A stretch of DNA of 64,000 bases from a virus: positions 32,001 through 96,000 of the IMG/VR virus record IMGVR_UViG_3300025168_000033; one strand, written 5' to 3'. Each line of letters begins with the position of its first letter. The stretch's first letter is position 1. Below are positions 24,193-50,102 of the stretch, piece by piece. Below the pieces are notes generated by a model, which saw only the letters and a list, made by a program, of their open reading frames with translations, was not told where the DNA came from and did not search any database. The position numbers were made by a program, and so were the translations under genes.

Positions 24193-25869
24193 TTAATATA
24201 TTCCGTATTGAGAGAATATACCAAAAGTAATATAGTTTGTTTCTGGGTGATGTCCAGCTTCAACTAATGCGAATCTAGATTTAACCGCAATTTTAGGAGC
24301 CATTGTTCCTTCAGCGATAGTTTCTACTGATTCAGCCATTAAGTAAGGCATGAATACCAATCCAGGTGAATTACCATCTCCTTTTCTTCCAACTAATACT
24401 CTGTTGTCAGACCAAGCCATGTTAGGATCAACATAAACAGCTACACCTCCAATTGTTCCAACTGGGTAAAGTGAACCACCTACTTGATTTAAAGTATTTG
24501 CCATTGGCGCAGCGATAAAACCAGCACTATCTTGTAAAGCAGTAGCGATTTGACCGTTTGTTACCATGAAGTTAGCATTACCTCTTCTTCCTCTGATAGC
24601 AATCATGTTAGCACAAGCAAGAACCTTACTAAAGATCTTTCTTTGTCTTGTATGAATGTTTTCTGAAGTAGATATAGTAGTACCTTCAGTTGCAGGAACA
24701 GGAGTAGTAAAATCACCTACTCTGTTAGCTCCAGTAGAATCAATTGCAGATCCAAAAGAACCAATTGCAGTTGTAGTATTAGATAAGTTCAAGTGGAAAT
24801 GAACATTTTGAGTTTTAGAAATATTTGCATGGTTTTTAACACCTAATTTAAACAATCTTTCTAAGATGTTTTTGTTGATTGATTGAGTCAATTCATTTGC
24901 AAGAACAGCTTCAACCTGAGCAACAGCATCAACACCAAATTGTTTTAAATCTTGAACTTGTTCTCTTGTAACTGCAGCAGCAACTTGGAAAGTTTTAGCT
25001 TCAACAGATTGATTGAACAATGTCAAGTTCATGATATTATCTTGAGTTGTTTCACCAGCATCTCTTGAATAAGGATCATTAGATCCATAAGAATTACCAG
25101 AGAATCCAGTAATATGATCTTCTAGAGATTTTACTAATGAAGCAGCAGAAGTTTGATCAGCTCCGTCTTGAACACCAACTGCGGTTGCAGAAGTAGCAGC
25201 ATAAACAGCCCATGAACCATCAATACAATCAGCAATTGAAGGAGCAGTAGTAGTATTACCTACACTATAAACATTACCAGTAGCAATAGTACCAGTAGAA
25301 ATTACTTCAAAGATACTAAATCCATCAATTCTAGAAGTTCCTAAGAATTTAGAATAAATTGCGTTAGCATTGTTACCAGTTGTTCCAGCAGAAGCTAAGA
25401 AGTGATTATCATTAACAACAAGAGTTGAATCAGTAGTATCAACCTTGATTATAGCAGGATTATTATCAGTTCCTTTAGCATCCAATTTTCCACCTCCGTA
25501 AACGAAGTCTAAATAAGTTAAAACACCCATTGGTCCAGGCATTGGTATAACTGGTACTAGGTCTAAACCTACAGTATTTGCAGCAACTTGCATTGCTAAA
25601 GGTAATAAAGTGTGAGCTTTATCTCCTGATCCTTTTACACCACCGGCAAAACCGTCTTGTGATCCTGGGGGTCCAGGGAATTTTGTTGCTCCCATTCCGT
25701 TTACACCACCTAAAGTTGCGTAAGCGTTGTTTTCGTAAAGCTCATGGTTATGACAGTATTTTGACATCCATTCAACAGTATTACGGTCTTTAATTCCCGT
25801 AGTAGACTCGATGATCGGTGCCCATTTACTCATAACCTCAGCTTCGTTAATCATTTTATGTCCGTACAT
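24193..25869 (-). CDS. gp23: major capsid protein
   Basis: KWAPII, V.PM.GP.G...YLD..Y, V.AK......T.E..QDL...G.DA...L.NE..Q.IN..I, RG..NF, YVDP, G.KG....GL.F.PY, PK..VKSR. Confidence 0.93.
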   Translation of the reverse strand: MYGHKMINEAEVMSKWAPIIESTTGIKDRNTVEWMSKYCHNHELYENNAYATLGGVNGMGATKFPGPPGSQDGFAGGVKGSGDKAHTLLPLAMQVAANTVGLDLVPVIPMPGPMGVLTYLDFVYGGGKLDAKGTDNNPAIIKVDTTDSTLVVNDNHFLASAGTTGNNANAIYSKFLGTSRIDGFSIFEVISTGTIATGNVYSVGNTTTAPSIADCIDGSWAVYAATSATAVGVQDGADQTSAASLVKSLEDHITGFSGNSYGSNDPYSRDAGETTQDNIMNLTLFNQSVEAKTFQVAAAVTREQVQDLKQFGVDAVAQVEAVLANELTQSINKNILERLFKLGVKNHANISKTQNVHFHLNLSNTTTAIGSFGSAIDSTGANRVGDFTTPVPATEGTTISTSENIHTRQRKIFSKVLACANMIAIRGRRGNANFMVTNGQIATALQDSAGFIAAPMANTLNQVGGSLYPVGTIGGVAVYVDPNMAWSDNRVLVGRKGDGNSPGLVFMPYLMAESVETIAEGTMAPKIAVKSRFALVEAGHHPETNYITFGIFSQYGIY

Positions 25870-25897: not shown

Positions 25898-27736
25898 TTA
25901 AATTTTGTTTGTTTTGAATCGTTTTGCTAATCCTTCAGTAACTGCATCCATATAAGAACTTGTAACTTTAACTTCGTTTATCGATTCAGAATTTGCAATT
26001 GCAGATTCATTAATCGGTTGAATTATTTCAGATCTCAAATCTCTTGTCGACCAAAAATGATCGATTTGATATTGTGATTCTAAAACACTAACAGAAGCTT
26101 GTAATTTAATTTCTTCTTGTTTGCTTTCACTTAAAGAATCATAAGACTCTTTATATTTAGCTGGGATATTTTCCAACCAATTTAAAACTTTAGGTTCGGG
26201 TGTTGTTGCTGATTCCCATATTCTTTCAACATCTCTAGTTCCGAAGTATTTGTTATTTTTAAATGCAAGTATCAAGTCACCTTGAGAGCTTTCATTTAAT
26301 TTTGCAAATTCACTTCTCTTAGATTCCGTTACAAAATGTAGGAAATGCAAGTCCTTATCTTCAGTTACTGCTTTTTGCTTCTTAGCAGATTCAAGTAAAG
26401 TATTTATCTTAGTACTGATATCATTCTTAAAGTTATCATTACTTTCTATAATTAAATTTTCTTTAGGTTCCGATTGCTTACTTATTCTACCATTACCTTC
26501 ATTAATTAATTTTGCACCGTTAAGTTCAGCAAAATTTTCATTAATATCGTTAATAGAATGTTCGGTATATGAACCTAGAGTTTCTAGATTTTCTTTAATA
26601 TATTCAGTAAAATTAGCAACATGTTCCATGTTCTCAACAATATAATCGTTATGAGAAATAAGAGTATCTACTGATTCATTAATTGTAGTTTGATATTCAA
26701 ATCTTGAATTAACTTCTTCACTAATGTGTTTAGAATATTCAATTGAATTATCAACTGATTCAGCAACCATTTTACTATATTCGATTGAATTATCAAGGTT
26801 TTCAGCCAATGATTTACTATATTCAATTCCTTGATCGGTCTTAAGAGCAACCAATTCACTATAATCTTTAACTGATTCAAGACCTTCAACAATATAATCA
26901 TTATGTGCAATTAGGTTGTCTGTATTTTCTTCAACCTTATTGATTTTTGAATTCATTGAATTTACTTCCTTAGCAATAGTTTCAACCCACTCTACAATTT
27001 GTGATTGTTCCTTTGTATTATTAGAAGGTATATCAGATTCGTTTATAGATTTGATTGATTCCTGGATCTTATTGAATTGTTCAGTGATATATTTTGAATA
27101 TTTATCGAACTGATCCATTGAGATGAATGATTCACCTTTAGTTTCGTTTATTGCAACTTCTGGTGCGTCAACTTGAGTTAAACCGTTATTTGTGTTATCC
27201 ATTTCAAATATTTGTATTGTATCGTCGTTTTGTAAGCCAAATGATTCATTGACTCTGTTTAATTGTGCATTTTCAAATCCTGGATCTGCAACCAAATCAT
27301 AAGTAAATAATCTTTTAACTTTTACATGATTATTTGATTCAACAACACCAGCTGCTCTAGATGAAATATGTATTGGAACTCCTGCATCAACTAATGCCTT
27401 TGCTTGTTTTCCAGCATCAGTATCAAGTAGCTTAATTCTACCTCTTACTTGTTTTGAAGATTTATCGTAAGATATTTCTTCTATAACATGTGATACATTT
27501 TTTAATGATACTTCGAATTGTTTTGGATGATCCAGTTCTCCTAGAATTTTTCTATCTTTAACTTTTTTAGCTAATTCTTCCACATGAGGAACAAATTCAG
27601 CTTCATCGTAAATTCGATTGTTTTTATTTTTTGTGCCTATTTCCGAAAAAATTCCTTCCAGTATATAATCGCCATTAGCGGTTTTCTGGAATTCTGCCTC
27701 AGAAACTGATCTTTCAAGAATCAGTAAGTTTTTCAT
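25898..27736 (-). CDS. gp21: prohead protease (gp21) fused to scaffold/core (gp22-like); start likely MKNLLILE at 27736
   Basis: LEGIF, NKNNRIY, LGELDHP, VSH.I, ISSRAAG, YDLVADPGF; long helical repeat C-terminus; late promoter at about 27769-27779. Confidence 0.88.
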   Translation of the reverse strand: MKNLLILERSVSEAEFQKTANGDYILEGIFSEIGTKNKNNRIYDEAEFVPHVEELAKKVKDRKILGELDHPKQFEVSLKNVSHVIEEISYDKSSKQVRGRIKLLDTDAGKQAKALVDAGVPIHISSRAAGVVESNNHVKVKRLFTYDLVADPGFENAQLNRVNESFGLQNDDTIQIFEMDNTNNGLTQVDAPEVAINETKGESFISMDQFDKYSKYITEQFNKIQESIKSINESDIPSNNTKEQSQIVEWVETIAKEVNSMNSKINKVEENTDNLIAHNDYIVEGLESVKDYSELVALKTDQGIEYSKSLAENLDNSIEYSKMVAESVDNSIEYSKHISEEVNSRFEYQTTINESVDTLISHNDYIVENMEHVANFTEYIKENLETLGSYTEHSINDINENFAELNGAKLINEGNGRISKQSEPKENLIIESNDNFKNDISTKINTLLESAKKQKAVTEDKDLHFLHFVTESKRSEFAKLNESSQGDLILAFKNNKYFGTRDVERIWESATTPEPKVLNWLENIPAKYKESYDSLSESKQEEIKLQASVSVLESQYQIDHFWSTRDLRSEIIQPINESAIANSESINEVKVTSSYMDAVTEGLAKRFKTNKI

Positions 27737-27819
27737 ATTTGTAGGTTTATTTTTAGCTTGGCTATTTGTTATATATATCAAGTTCACATTTACAAATGTG
27801 GTATCATTTTATAATACTT

Positions 27820-41246: not shown

Positions 41247-42419
41247 TTAAAAAAGTGCTGTTGTATAAACAAGATTTCTATTTAATTGTGGTAATCCAGA
41301 AGGGACTATTATTCGATTAAGAGGTTCAAGAATAAATTTTTCAAATTGCTTTTCATATGATATTTGTGCAGCAAATTCATAAGGATAATCCCCAGCTATA
41401 TAAGCAAAGACATTACAAAATGGATCATCTGTATGATAGAATCTAATCTTTTGGCCTGACGTAATTAACTGATATTTATTTTTGTATTTTGAATTATTTA
41501 ATAGATAATTGTAGTATCCACCAGCCCTAACATGAAAAGGACATTTTGATGCTATTTGAAATTCTGTTTTATCATCAATTATGTATTTCTTATAGTTTGA
41601 TATTGACCGATTTGCGCTTATATCTTCAATGTTAGCCATCTTAAATTCATCTTTAATATCCTTTAGAACTCCTATAAGCTTATCGGATCTTAATTCATCC
41701 TGAGCAAATATCCAGGAAACAAGATCTTTTAGTTTTTTACGAGCAAATGACGGTGTAGAAGATTGAATTAATTCCAGACCTTTTGCTTTTATTGAAGATA
41801 AATTATCATAATGCTTACCATCTTTCCAGATTATATTTTGAACATATTTCTTTTTAGCTACCCATATTCCGTTAGTTGCTATAGTTTCAAGTTCAAAATT
41901 TAAGAAGTTTTCTGAATTATGCTTGTTTGCATAAATTTCAAAACATTTATTTAAGTAAGGACCTAAACGATATTCATTAAGCTTTAGAATAAAATCGATA
42001 ATGCCACCAGACCAGTTAACCGCTTTCATTGCTTCATTAAAAACTAAATAACCTGAATCCGTATCTGTATAAATCCATACAGATTCTTTCATCGACGGTA
42101 ATGGCTTATCATTATCTAATCCTAATATTTTATGCAATTTATAATCAGTTGGCCAAAAGTCCTTGAAATATCGTTGAACACATTTTTCAGAATATTTAAT
42201 AGCATCTTGACCTTGTAATGTAATTGCTTCAGCAATATTTAAATTAAAGAAGTGAAAATATTCATTAGCAAAGGCTCCATAAATACTGTTAATTATAAGT
42301 TTTATGGCTTGTTCCTGTGTAGAGCAATCTAAAGATTCATTTTCTAGTTGAATAATATATTCCGATAATTCAGCTTTAGTCATTCCACTAACATCCAAGA
42401 TATTAGCAAATTCAGTCAT
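41247..42419 (-). CDS. gp43: family B DNA polymerase, C-terminal subunit (split gp43)
   Basis: KLIINSIYGA, ITLQGQ, YTDTDS, AKKKY, KGLE..SSTP. Confidence 0.92.
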   Translation of the reverse strand: MTEFANILDVSGMTKAELSEYIIQLENESLDCSTQEQAIKLIINSIYGAFANEYFHFFNLNIAEAITLQGQDAIKYSEKCVQRYFKDFWPTDYKLHKILGLDNDKPLPSMKESVWIYTDTDSGYLVFNEAMKAVNWSGGIIDFILKLNEYRLGPYLNKCFEIYANKHNSENFLNFELETIATNGIWVAKKKYVQNIIWKDGKHYDNLSSIKAKGLELIQSSTPSFARKKLKDLVSWIFAQDELRSDKLIGVLKDIKDEFKMANIEDISANRSISNYKKYIIDDKTEFQIASKCPFHVRAGGYYNYLLNNSKYKNKYQLITSGQKIRFYHTDDPFCNVFAYIAGDYPYEFAAQISYEKQFEKFILEPLNRIIVPSGLPQLNRNLVYTTALF

Positions 42420-46935: not shown

Positions 46936-48345
46936 TTACTTGTTTTTAAGTTGTTCTTTTAATTTTACTAATTCAATTTCTAAAAATAAATGTCGTTTCT
47001 TAAGTGTTTTTCTTTGACCATATAATTCACCTAGCACCTGTTTTAATATAGAATCTCCTTCATTTTTAAATACTGCACCAGTGGATGACACAATTAAAGA
47101 TTTATCTTTTCGTTTTTCTTCAATTTCATTTTGATCGCTTAATTTTTCAACAAATACTTCAGGAGATATATTTATTTGGCGCATTACGGAAGGATATAGT
47201 GAAGCAAAATCAAAGCATGCCACTGCATCATAAAGACCAGGTACTGGTTGCTTTACATAAGCACCTTCATAAGCACCTGTTACTTTAGATGTATATTCAT
47301 CCGCAATAACCATATTATTTTGATAAAACTTTTTAAACATTAATGCTTCAGTAAGATTTACTGCAGAACTCGCTTTATAGATAGTTAGATTATTTAATGC
47401 CGCTACAGAAAGAATTGTATTAACAGTCTTTAGTTTTCTATGAATCAATGTTACTAATCCTGCATCAGCAGCATTATAAGCAACATATTTTAAATAGTCA
47501 TTTTCATACATATCCTGTATCGATCCTTGATATTTTACTTTATTAATACCAAGAACCTGTCGGCCTGCAGTATCTAATGAATGATTTTCTTTTGGTGAAA
47601 CAGTCCTATCGTATGACTTATAAATTTCCATGTAATCTATCATTCCTAGATGAATAGGCAGATCTCCGCGATATGATAATTCATTTACTGGTGATGCAAT
47701 TGCTGGATCGATTCCAAGATTTCTAGCTCGTTTAGTTAAATAGGCCCAGTCAAATCTAAACCAGTTCCAACCTGTTACAAGTGCAAATTTAGGAAGCATC
47801 TTTGAAAAGAATGTATATAACATATCAAATTCAGTTTCAAAGCAAATATATTTAAATTTAAATGTAAGGCCTAATTTAGCAAAATGTTCATCAATCATAA
47901 CTTGAACTCGTGATTGATCCGCTTGACTCATTGGTTTCCAACCTAATACAATAGCTTGTAAATCATCAGTTGTTACAGCAATAGTAGTAACACGTTCTTT
48001 AGCTATTTCAGTATTCGGGAATCCATCAATTACTTCGGTTTCAATATCAATAGAACTCATCTTAGGAAAATTGACAGCCGTAATTACATCTTTATCTTCT
48101 TTAGGAAGGTTTTCAATAATTTCATAGATATCAAATTTAGATAATTTACCTTTGACTGGCCTTACTTTCTTAACTGATTTACCATCCCAGTTTTTAAATT
48201 CATCAGATTTATTTGGATCTGTATCTGCACATACTTTCCAGGATTTGAAATTAGAAATATCGAATTTTTTAATTTGCTTATTTCCTTTAGCATCAAAAAA
48301 TGAAATATTCAATGCGCCATATTGTTTTTGAATATCTAATATCAT
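46936..48345 (-). CDS. gp43: family B DNA polymerase, N-terminal subunit with 3'-5' exonuclease (split gp43)
   Basis: DIETE, TGWN..FD, SLD, YN..D, YEGAYV..P, DFASLYPS, NISPE; ends in the fingers helix. Confidence 0.92.
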   Translation of the reverse strand: MILDIQKQYGALNISFFDAKGNKQIKKFDISNFKSWKVCADTDPNKSDEFKNWDGKSVKKVRPVKGKLSKFDIYEIIENLPKEDKDVITAVNFPKMSSIDIETEVIDGFPNTEIAKERVTTIAVTTDDLQAIVLGWKPMSQADQSRVQVMIDEHFAKLGLTFKFKYICFETEFDMLYTFFSKMLPKFALVTGWNWFRFDWAYLTKRARNLGIDPAIASPVNELSYRGDLPIHLGMIDYMEIYKSYDRTVSPKENHSLDTAGRQVLGINKVKYQGSIQDMYENDYLKYVAYNAADAGLVTLIHRKLKTVNTILSVAALNNLTIYKASSAVNLTEALMFKKFYQNNMVIADEYTSKVTGAYEGAYVKQPVPGLYDAVACFDFASLYPSVMRQINISPEVFVEKLSDQNEIEEKRKDKSLIVSSTGAVFKNEGDSILKQVLGELYGQRKTLKKRHLFLEIELVKLKEQLKNK

Positions 48346-48572
48346 ATATCTTCTAATTTATCGTTAGGAAATTTAGGAGTAAATTCATCATTTATGTGAC
48401 CACAGGATGCACATGCGAGTACAGGCATAGGAACAATTTGATCTTTATCGGATGCCATTATTATTTTTGAAATTCTTCGTAAAAACGTTTTATTCTCAAA
48501 TACATCATGGCTGCATTCATCACAAGTAACAGGTGTTGACATCATGATGTGTTGCATTGGATTGTCTATCAT
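48342..48572 (-). CDS. small zinc-ribbon protein
   Basis: CDEC...CASCGH. Confidence 0.65.
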   Translation of the reverse strand: MIDNPMQHIMMSTPVTCDECSHDVFENKTFLRRISKIIMASDKDQIVPMPVLACASCGHINDEFTPKFPNDKLEDI

Positions 48573-48719: not shown

Positions 48720-49358
48720 TTAATCAATACCCATTACGTTATTAAAACCTTGCTGTTTCAAAGCTTTTATTCCGTTATCTTGATGTCTTTTATTTTCACC
48801 TTCAACTTCGTAATATCCGCCATTTGCATCAACATGAGCTTTAATTTTTTTAGATGCAAAGTATTTTTCAATATATAATAATTGTTGAGACCTATTAAAA
48901 TCTCTAAATTCATTATGATCGAATTCCATTGATTCATTTACGAATCTTGAGAATTTCATAAATGCTGATTCATCTACTTCATCCTCGTCTTCATCATCAA
49001 TATCGCCATTTAAGCTATGAATTTTATCACCACTTCCGTTAGGTAATCCACCGTCGGCTCCAGGCATTGAAGTAGGACCCATTCCATTTACATTTCCTGG
49101 AGTTACTTCTTCTATCAATTGATCATTATCAAATTTTATGGCTGAAGTTGTATTATAATCACTAATTCTTGATTTAATACCATAAAGATCCATCATCATT
49201 TTAACAACAGTAGAACCTTTCTTTTTATCTTTCAATTGAAAGTAAGTTACTTTATCATTTGATTGAGATATTATTTGACTCACATATTGACTCAACTCTT
49301 TAGAAATATCTAATGCTGAATCACCTGATAATTGTCCTTTAAAGTTTGATTCGTTCAT
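48720..49358 (-). CDS. putative internal head polyprotein with internal tag and capsid-like N-arm motif
   Basis: MNE|S start, LIEE|VTPGNVNGMG...GSGDK, internal FMKFSRFVNE. Confidence 0.55.
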   Translation of the reverse strand: MNESNFKGQLSGDSALDISKELSQYVSQIISQSNDKVTYFQLKDKKKGSTVVKMMMDLYGIKSRISDYNTTSAIKFDNDQLIEEVTPGNVNGMGPTSMPGADGGLPNGSGDKIHSLNGDIDDEDEDEVDESAFMKFSRFVNESMEFDHNEFRDFNRSQQLLYIEKYFASKKIKAHVDANGGYYEVEGENKRHQDNGIKALKQQGFNNVMGID

Positions 49359-49364
49359 ATTGAT

Positions 49365-50102
49365 TTATTTTTTATAAGGAGCTCTAACATCGATTTTACC
49401 GCCACTTAATTCTTTTGCAACTTTATCAACCTGTTCTGGTTCAATCTTTGGCATATCCGCTCTTGGTGGTGCACCTTCTGGTGGTCCAACTCTTTGAATA
49501 GCAGCTAAGGCTTTTGCAATTGTAGCTTCACCTCTTTTTTCAAACCAAGCAATAGCTTTTTCTTTATTATAGAATTTTTTATCCATTCCTTCACCGTCAT
49601 AGATTGCAGCTTTAACATTATCCATAGTTGATGTGAAAATATTAGCATCTCCAGCAACAGCTAGACCTCTTTTATTTCCTAATGCATCTCCGGCAGCTCT
49701 AAGAACTGGAACTAAATCACCAATATTTAATTCAGATTGTACTCCTGTTACTTTTGCAGAAGGATTGTTGAACATTGTAGCAGCCCATCTATGATGACCA
49801 TCTAGAATTCTGTTATCTTGTGAAATAACAGCACCAAGATCTCCACCTTCAACTCCTACAATAGCCATACTTAATGCCTTAGCTAAATAAACTGCATCCT
49901 GTGATGGCTTTAATGATTTAGCTGGAATAGAAGCTTTTTTAGTTACTACTACATCGTCTTGAGTATCTCCATCTTTTTTACCAGCTTTAAAAAATTCCTT
50001 GTCATTTTTATTTCCAGGATTTGGAAATTTTGATGGATCGATTTCTTTAGTTTTTAAGCTTTCATTAATAACGAATTGCTCAAATGATATTAATTTTTTC
50101 AT
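49365..50102 (-). CDS. tagged ParB/sulfiredoxin-like protein
   Basis: MKKLISFEQFVINE; LKPSQ, VISQDNRILDGHHRWAA. Confidence 0.7.
   Translation of the reverse strand: MKKLISFEQFVINESLKTKEIDPSKFPNPGNKNDKEFFKAGKKDGDTQDDVVVTKKASIPAKSLKPSQDAVYLAKALSMAIVGVEGGDLGAVISQDNRILDGHHRWAATMFNNPSAKVTGVQSELNIGDLVPVLRAAGDALGNKRGLAVAGDANIFTSTMDNVKAAIYDGEGMDKKFYNKEKAIAWFEKRGEATIAKALAAIQRVGPPEGAPPRADMPKIEPEQVDKVAKELSGGKIDVRAPYKK

What the first reader, a model, noticed from the sequence alone, without database searches (positions are those of the whole stretch)
49011..49120. Major-capsid N-arm motif copied into a cargo protein
Seen: MCP has HELYE-NNAYATLGGVNGMGATKFPG...KGSGDKAHTL (about 25610-25740). ORF 48720..49358 has LIEE-VTPGNVNGMGPTSMPG...NGSGDKIHSL. 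Both have VNGMG..(P)G...GSGDK.H.L directly after a glutamate cleavage-type site. Inference: after maturation the freed peptide mimics the capsid N-arm and docks on the inner shell, which would be a second targeting or anchoring device or a capsid-stabilising peptide.
Basis: partly seen in the sequence, partly recalled or inferred. Interest (0 to 1): 0.7.

Follow-up and report, generated by a model that had tools for sequence, protein, structure and literature searches.

The report
Capsid-arm mimic inside a phage cargo protein
A packaged-cargo protein of this large T4-like phage carries, in a disordered linker between two predicted protease cut sites, a selected copy of the first ~35 residues of the mature major capsid protein. 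This is a local form of an unstudied device that phage T4 also has (gene 61.1), and it probably lets the cut peptide bind wherever the capsid protein's own arm binds.

Summary
ORF 48720..49358(-) (212 aa) and the Gp23-family major capsid protein (MCP, 24193..25869(-)) share VNGMG..PG..GSGDK.H.L directly after an L-x-E site. BLASTP gives E=6e-6, and 0 of 5000 composition-preserving shuffles reach the score.

It is not Gly-rich chance and not a recent DNA copy, because synonymous codons are randomised.

The copy is one part of a conserved, mobile, disordered cassette:
- an L-x-E cut site,
- the MCP-arm copy,
- an acidic run,
- an internal T4-type capsid-targeting sequence ending in a second cut site.

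The same cassette occurs at ~45% identity in proteins with unrelated flanking domains.

Arm copies also exist in LR756500, LR756502 (two), Tenacibaculum phage PTm1, Lak-C1, an IMG/VR relative and T4 (gp61.1 vs gp23, E=6e-9). Each scores best against its own phage's MCP. PAU has none.

The aligned T4 segment is the 'N-fist'. It lies inside the prohead and is externalised on expansion, so 'docks on the inner shell' is unproven.

Most likely the protease-released peptide binds the partner of the MCP arm, either shell (favoured) or core. No cleavage or binding has been measured.

This scan flagged the same phenomenon earlier on three other genomes. I found no paper describing it.

The parts
48720..49358 (-). 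ORF212: two small domains joined by the disordered arm-mimic cassette
   Evidence: AF2: residues 9-82 pLDDT 88-97; residues 83-145 about 50 with no secondary structure; residues 150-205 at 55-74
49110..49358 (-). N-terminal domain (res 1-83), a small alpha/beta module found in about 40 multi-domain phage proteins. It ends in the conserved KFDNDQ-x-x-E site, here L81-I82-E83, the predicted cut site 1 (49110..49118)
49011..49109 (-). Copy of the mature MCP N-terminal arm (res 84-116; blocks VNGMG, PG, GSGDK-x-H-x-L)
48963..49010 (-). Acidic spacer (res 117-132, Asp/Glu run)
   Evidence: an acidic run is conserved in most cassette homologues
48933..48962 (-). Internal capsid-targeting-like sequence (res 133-142, F-x-x-F-V-N-E), ending in predicted cut site 2 after E142
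   Evidence: F57, F60 and E63 are invariant in the cassette alignment; the same motif starts more than 20 other ORFs of the genome
48723..48932 (-). C-terminal domain (res 143-212), shared only with P0001; function unknown
25606..25740 (-). MCP maturation site L44-Y45-E46 plus N-terminal arm (res 47-88), the template of the copy. It aligns with T4 gp23 residues 66-96 (N-fist and start of the N-arm)
24193..25869 (-). Major capsid protein, Gp23 family
25898..27787 (-). Prohead protease (Peptidase S77, T4 gp21 type) fused to a scaffold-like region; the enzyme expected to cut the L-x-E sites
49365..50102 (-). ParB-like tagged cargo gene directly upstream. Its homologue in phage PTm1 is fused to that phage's own arm copy

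Best explanation
ORF212 is a head-cargo polyprotein. Its disordered middle is a conserved 'capsid-arm mimic cassette' with four parts: an L-x-E protease site, a copy of the first ~35 residues of the mature major capsid protein (the equivalent of T4's N-fist), an acidic spacer, and an internal capsid-targeting sequence that ends in a second protease site. Shown: the similarity, its statistical significance, its conservation with randomised synonymous sites, the modular mobility of the cassette, and the presence of own-MCP-matched copies in other T4-superfamily phages including T4 gp61.1. Inferred: the targeting sequence brings the protein into the prohead. The S77 prohead protease then cuts after E83 and E142, freeing the two flanking domains and a ~59-residue acidic peptide whose new N-terminus imitates that of the mature capsid protein. 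This peptide then docks on capsid-protein subunits at sites that normally accept a neighbour's N-terminal arm. There it either anchors itself, or before cleavage the attached cargo, to the shell, or it fills or guards such sites.
For: Similarity and significance. The residues kept are the invariant ones of 120 MCP homologues. Not a recent DNA copy: of 26 identical residues 13 share the codon (14.3 expected from codon usage), and the Ser of GSGD is AGT in one and TCA in the other. The cassette is conserved at ~45% identity in proteins with unrelated flanks (P0135, P0158, P0164, P0166, P0167, P0002), with invariant P, GMG, PG, GSGD, F..F..E. Own-MCP matching: G001 65% over 40 residues, gapless from the cut site, E=3e-14; LR756500 E=2.9e-7; PTm1 E=2.7e-8; LR756502 E=5.9e-7 and a second copy at E=0.07; Lak-C1 E=0.003; T4 gp61.1 vs gp23 E=6e-9. 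In a 9x9 score matrix all 8 copies whose own MCP is available score best on it. Lineage-specific spacer residues are shared within pairs. Synonymous sites are at the random expectation in 7 of 8 pairs. Copies start at or next to the cut site. The cassette is predicted disordered, as expected for an extended arm. An S77 protease is encoded next to the MCP. In T4 the targeting tag is removed and the arm copy is what remains (CTS biology from PMC9026906). In PTm1 the copy-bearing gene lies between the portal and protease genes.
Against: No proteomic, cleavage, binding or structural data exist for any member. In T4 the equivalent MCP segment ends on the outer surface after expansion (PMC9546572), so a peptide made inside the head would have to act before expansion or pass through the shell. 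Within the close clade the window's copy does not single out its own MCP: it ranks 10th of 120, scores 58-83. Its T-P-G start looks more like the MCPs of another sub-clade (L009/L011), so the module may move between phages. PAU has no second copy. The window's copy has a deletion in the spacer relative to its MCP. Published T4 head maps, as far as I read, report no unassigned N-fist-like peptide.
Confidence: 0.4

Rival explanations
1. Prohead-stage core docking. The copy imitates the state in which the uncleaved MCP N-terminal region lies inside the prohead and contacts the scaffolding core. It acts together with the adjacent targeting sequence as an extended, higher-affinity loading signal, or as a core-to-shell tether, and is discarded after cleavage.
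For: In T4 the gp23 N-terminal region is inside and disordered in the unexpanded head and is thought to contact the gp22 core (PMC9546572). In this clade the copy is always linked to a targeting-like sequence. T4 gp61.1 aligns with gp23 across the cut site, including the nine residues before it. ORF212 lacks an N-terminal tag, so its N-domain depends on the cassette for loading.
Against: In T4 ten residues suffice for targeting (PMC9026906), and in gp61.1 the copy is the mature product, not the removed part. Copies start exactly at the cut site, which matters for a free N-terminus rather than for an uncleaved signal. The copied residues are the near-invariant ones of the MCP, whereas scaffolds usually evolve fast.
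Confidence: 0.25
2. Protease decoy or timer. By reproducing the MCP's cleavage site and its downstream context, the cassette is a competing substrate that tunes when or how fast the prohead protease processes the MCP, or it ensures that cargo is cut in step with the shell.
For: The copies reproduce the residues immediately after the scissile bond. These are identical in G001 (three residues) and PTm1 (three residues). The T4 copy also aligns upstream of the cut.
Against: About 35-40 residues, including lineage-specific spacer sequence, are conserved, far more than a protease subsite needs. More than 20 other tagged cargo proteins are apparently cut at L-N-E without this context.
Confidence: 0.12
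3. No function of its own: a flexible Gly/Pro-rich linker that resembles the MCP by chance or as a relic of recombination with the capsid gene.
For: The region is predicted disordered. The cassette moves between genes. One pair (LR756502, first copy) shows excess codon identity, 22 against 14.5 expected, which suggests some gene conversion.
Against: 0 of 5000 shuffles reach the score. Synonymous sites are randomised while the amino acids are kept in 7 of 8 pairs. Own-MCP-matched copies occur in lineages as far apart as T4, Lak and PTm1. The same invariant residues are kept in the cassette and in the MCP.
Confidence: 0.05

Closest known systems
Phage T4 gene 61.1 product (54 aa, annotated hypothetical; NC_000866 18966..19130)
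   Same: It carries a copy of its own MCP's segment around and after the maturation cut (gp23 residues 57-93, 46% identity, E=6e-9). The copy follows an I-x-E site and is combined with a capsid-targeting-type sequence and a charged low-complexity tail. No function is reported.
   Different: T4: small stand-alone protein, tag at the N-terminus before the copy, Lys/Glu tail. Window: the copy is embedded between two folded domains, the tag follows the copy after an acidic run, and there are two cut sites. No profile-level homology was detectable (no PHROG hit). A T4-type small form (N-terminal tag plus copy) does exist in a relative, LR756502 (L029).
T4 internal proteins IPI/IPII/IPIII and Alt, with the capsid targeting sequence cut by gp21
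   Same: An S77 protease, L/I-x-E sites and a short aromatic-rich tag ending in Glu. More than 20 proteins of this genome start with such a tag, and ORF212 carries one internally.
   Different: ORF212 has no N-terminal tag. Its tag is internal and is coupled to an MCP-arm copy, which T4 internal proteins lack.
T4 gp23 N-fist and N-arm (residues 66 to ~105 of the mature MCP)
   Same: It is the template of the copy. The window MCP residues 53-86 align with gp23 66-96. It follows the maturation cut and is Gly-rich and extended.
   Different: The copy is not attached to an HK97-fold body. ORF212 has no Gp23 domain.
T4 prohead core proteins gp67/gp68 and the acidic internal peptides
   Same: Small proteins that the prohead protease turns into short acidic peptides. 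In PTm1 the copy-bearing gene lies between the portal and protease genes, where T4 has genes 67 and 68 (the T4 gene order is from my own knowledge).
   Different: No sequence comparison was made here, and no MCP-arm similarity is known to me for gp67/gp68.

Membership tests
T4 gp61.1-type capsid-arm mimic (informal; unstudied) | A stretch similar to the phage's own MCP directly after the MCP maturation cut | tested here: met
   (E=6e-6; 0 of 5000 shuffles); T4 reference pair verified
T4 gp61.1-type capsid-arm mimic (informal; unstudied) | The copy is preceded by an L/I-x-E protease-type site | tested here: met
   L81-I82-E83 precedes the copy. The site is conserved in cassette homologues. Actual cleavage was not tested.
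T4 gp61.1-type capsid-arm mimic (informal; unstudied) | N-terminal capsid-targeting sequence immediately before the copy; small stand-alone protein | tested here: not met
   ORF212 is 212 aa, has no N-terminal tag, and its tag lies after the copy at residues 133-142
T4 gp61.1-type capsid-arm mimic (informal; unstudied) | Profile homology to the T4 61.1 PHROG families named in earlier scan notes | tested here: not met
   hmmscan of ORF212, the cassette alone and six cassette homologues against PHROGs at E<=10 gave no such family. This is expected if each copy follows its own MCP.
T4-type CTS head cargo (IPs, Alt) | Short tag ending in L/I-x-E that is shared with other cargo of the same phage | tested here: inconclusive
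   The tag motif is present but internal (residues 136-142). In more than 20 other ORFs it is N-terminal.
T4-type CTS head cargo (IPs, Alt) | Phage encodes a gp21-type (S77) prohead protease | tested here: met
   PF03420 hit in 25898..27787
T4-type CTS head cargo (IPs, Alt) | Protein is found in heads and is processed | not testable with these tools
   Uncultured phage; no proteome
Gp23/gp24 capsid protein family (PF07068) | HK97-fold capsid protein body | tested here: not met
   No Pfam hit. The AF2 model is a small alpha/beta domain, a disordered linker and a small C-domain. There is only one PF07068 gene in the record.

The most novel reading that the evidence does not exclude
T4-superfamily phages in general, T4 included (gp61.1), make a free or cargo-linked copy of the capsid protein's N-terminal fist. 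This copy co-evolves with the capsid protein and is a real but overlooked minor head component. After protease release it would occupy arm-accepting sites on the capsid lattice, for example next to vertices or the portal where a neighbour's arm is missing. There it would tether cargo or tune shell stability and expansion.
Probability: 0.3. Interest if true: 0.8.

Novelty: new variant of a known kind. Interest (0 to 1): 0.62.

Why it matters
T4 head assembly is one of the best-studied assembly pathways, yet I found no described component that copies the capsid protein's own arm. If the mimic binds the shell or the core, that would be a new principle for anchoring or loading head cargo. It could serve as a handle for capsid-display or delivery engineering. 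It would also assign a function to a conserved orphan T4 gene, which can be tested at once in T4 by knockout, head proteomics, and re-inspection of existing cryo-EM maps. For this window it also explains how an untagged N-terminal domain can be loaded: through an internal cassette.

Tried and rejected
- Pfam and PHROG scans of ORF212 and of the cassette proteins gave no informative family.
- tblastn of ORF212 against 50,697 phage records gave no match. A viral-contig scan with the whole ORF found nothing; the cassette alignment found 4 loci.
The contigs of P0001, P0002, P0003, P0135, P0158, P0164 and P0167 could therefore not be read, and their own MCPs could not be paired.
- Recent DNA copying or gene conversion is rejected for the window: codon identity is at the random expectation, and the Ser codon classes differ.
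- Chance from Gly-rich composition is rejected.
- The idea that the motif is a feature of the ORF212 N-domain family is rejected: about 40 N-domain homologues mostly lack it.
- Fine-scale own-MCP tracking inside the close clade is not resolved: rank 10 of 120.
- A gp24-like vertex paralogue, which would bear on a 'vertex filler' idea, was not found in this record or in LR756500, PTm1 or PAU. LR756502 gave only two weak hits below the cut-off, and Lak-C1's three matches all lie within its MCP region.
- PAU has no second copy at E<=10.
- The Atlas search on the N-domain gave only generic small alpha/beta fold matches.
- Co-folding with the MCP is not possible with the single-chain tool.
- The last homologous-protein search, the second structure job, the fold searches and the read-mapping tools were left unused because they would not be decisive.

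Full report
**What is in the window**

The window is part of a 108-kb IMG/VR virus record, about 37% complete. It belongs to a large T4-superfamily phage. Its MCP (24193..25869, minus strand) is a Gp23-family protein. It is 56% identical to the MCP of the 462-kb metagenomic phage LR756500 and more distantly related to those of Lak phages, Sphingomonas phage PAU and Tenacibaculum phage PTm1. Next to it lie an S77 (T4 gp21-type) prohead protease fused to a scaffold-like region, and a T4-type portal.

ORF212 (48720..49358, minus strand) has no Pfam or PHROG family. It lies between a cluster of tagged cargo genes and the replication genes: split family-B polymerase, ribonucleotide reductase, UvsX-like and DnaB-like.

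**Checking the observation**

- The two stretches are at the stated places. BLASTP aligns ORF212 residues 65-116 with MCP residues 26-88 at 41% identity, E=6e-6.
- Cassette residues 80-125 score 79 against the MCP. Five thousand composition-preserving shuffles give 30.2 +/- 4.5 with a maximum of 52.
- Among all frames of the 108-kb record the MCP is the only strong partner, and the GMG..GSGD pattern occurs nowhere else.
- In 120 MCP homologues the arm is almost invariant (E-L-Y-E, N, VNGMG, F-P, F, GSGDK, T-L-L-P...). ORF212 keeps VNGMG, P-G, GSGDK, H and L.
- A full-length alignment with T4 gp23 puts this MCP stretch opposite gp23 residues 66-96, the N-fist and the start of the N-arm.

**Not a recent DNA copy**

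Of 26 identical aligned residues only 13 use the same codon, where 14.3 are expected from codon usage. The Ser of GSGD is AGT in one gene and TCA in the other. The amino-acid identity is therefore maintained at saturated synonymous sites.

**The copy belongs to a mobile cassette**

The word-indexed search and the exhaustive phmmer search over 1.84 billion representatives show two separate things.

- The N-terminal domain (residues 1-83) occurs in about 40 multi-domain proteins. AF2 gives pLDDT 88-97 for a small alpha/beta fold. In these proteins the domain always ends in a conserved L/M/I-x-E site, and it mostly comes without the motif.
- The stretch from the cut site to residue 142 recurs at about 45% identity in proteins with unrelated flanks: P0135, P0158, P0164, P0166, P0167, and, nearly identical to the window, P0001 and P0002.

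In the alignment the invariant positions are P, G-M-G, P-G, G-S-G-D and, after an acidic run, F-x-x-F-x-x-E. That last element is the same tag that begins more than 20 other ORFs of this genome, and it resembles the T4 capsid targeting sequence (PMC9026906).

The cassette is thus: cut site, arm copy, acidic spacer, internal targeting sequence, second cut site. AF2 predicts it as disordered (pLDDT about 50, no secondary structure). If both sites are cut, residues 84-142 are released as a 59-residue acidic peptide.

**Own-MCP matching in other phages**

I took each phage's own MCP arm and searched its genome.

| Phage | Second copy | Evidence |
|---|---|---|
| G001 (IMG/VR relative) | In an 853-aa DUF3008-headed polyprotein; gapless 40-residue copy beginning with the same three residues after the cut; 65% identity, E=3e-14 | |
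| LR756500 | In a 127-aa DUF3008-like protein, followed by a basic run and a C-terminal tag; E=2.9e-7 | |
| PTm1 | In ORF-299, between the portal and protease-scaffold genes; E=2.7e-8 | |
| LR756502 | Two copies, one of T4 architecture (N-terminal tag, then copy); E=5.9e-7 and 0.07 | |
| Lak-C1 | In a 63-aa ORF that reproduces the Lak-specific variant of the first block; E=0.003 | |
| PAU | None at E<=10 | |

Following a lead from earlier notes of this scan, I read T4 gene 61.1 and compared it with gp23. Residues 2-38 align with gp23 57-93, across the Glu65 cut, at 46% identity, E=6e-9.

In a matrix of 9 copies against 9 MCP N-termini, all 8 copies whose own MCP is available score highest on it. 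Lineage-specific spacer residues are shared within pairs. Codon identity at identical residues is at the random expectation in 7 of 8 pairs; the first LR756502 copy is the exception, with 22 against 14.5.

Inside the close clade there is no resolution. The window's copy ranks 10th of 120 MCPs, and its T-P-G start resembles another sub-clade's MCPs, so the cassette may move between related phages.

**Mechanism**

Shown:
- a selected, MCP-matched arm copy, always at or next to a protease-type site;
- its link to a targeting sequence and a charged tail;
- its position in a disordered region;
- an S77 protease encoded in the genome.

Taken from the literature:
- T4's 25-residue N-fist contacts four subunits in two capsomers and helps form the Soc site.
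- Ten residues of the targeting sequence suffice for loading (PMC9026906).

Inferred:
- After cleavage the peptide presents an MCP-like N-terminus and binds what the MCP arm binds.
- I favour capsid subunits (0.4), for three reasons. The copied residues are the near-invariant ones of the MCP. The copies begin at the mature N-terminus. In T4 the copy is the mature product rather than the removed signal.
- Core docking in the prohead (0.25) and a protease decoy or timer (0.12) remain open.
- A functionless linker is unlikely (0.05).

**Comparison and novelty**

The system works like T4's tag-and-cut cargo loading, with the arm copy as an added element. The nearest named relative of that element is T4 gp61.1, an orphan gene. 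I found no paper that gives gp61.1 a function or describes an MCP-arm mimic.

ORF212 fails the architectural and profile tests for being a gp61.1 orthologue: the tag comes after the copy, the copy is embedded between two domains, and there is no PHROG hit. I file it as a new variant.

Three earlier follow-ups of this scan reached the same general reading on other genomes. I treated them as leads and re-tested the T4 claim and the own-MCP matching here.

**Limits**

- There is no experimental evidence for expression, packaging, cleavage or binding.
- The own-MCP test rests on 8 pairs from 7 phages.

Noticed in passing
window 49365-50102 (-) and L030:3295-4128 (PTm1 ORF-299): The ParB-like tagged gene directly upstream of ORF212 is homologous to the N-terminal domain of PTm1 ORF-299 (34% over 65 residues, E=2e-9, shared D-G-H-H motif). 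In PTm1 that domain is fused to the phage's own arm copy, and the gene lies between the portal and protease-scaffold genes. The link between a ParB-like domain and the arm copy may be ancestral.
   Followed up: partly
L017:1429-1812 (-), L008:2194-3100 (+), P0158, P0167, P0159: In relatives the cassette often follows a DUF3008-type N-terminal domain (Pfam hits E=5e-6 to 0.06). No DUF3008 match exists in the 108-kb record that holds the window.
   Followed up: partly
window 46936-48345 (-) and 41247-42419 (-): The family-B DNA polymerase is split into two genes about 4.5 kb apart, with ribonucleotide reductase subunits, a dUTPase-like gene and another ORF between them.
   Followed up: no
window 25898-27787 (-), residues about 482-489: The protease-scaffold fusion protein itself carries an internal targeting-like motif (F-x-x-F-V-T-E followed by S), as do two weaker sites at residues 230 and 393.
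   Followed up: no
L005:1967-2131 (-) vs L006:1240-2805 (+) (phage T4): The N-terminal targeting tag of T4 gp61.1 aligns with the nine residues before the gp23 maturation cut. The T4 capsid targeting sequence as such therefore resembles the end of the MCP propeptide.
   Followed up: partly
window 48342-48572 (-): A 76-aa ORF with two Cys pairs (zinc-ribbon-like) overlaps the start of the polymerase gene by 4 bases. It has no family hit.
   Followed up: no
window 25855-25869 (-): The database copy of this MCP (P0004, 553 aa) starts at the second Met (residue 6 of the listed ORF), so the real MCP start may be five residues downstream.
   Followed up: no
window 49110-49358 (-): The ORF212 N-domain is a recurrent module in phage polyproteins of up to 1100 aa. 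It sits at varying positions and is always closed by the same K-F-D-N-D-Q-x-x-E site. This fits the cut-apart polyprotein cargo noted for the neighbouring 741-aa ORF.
   Followed up: partly
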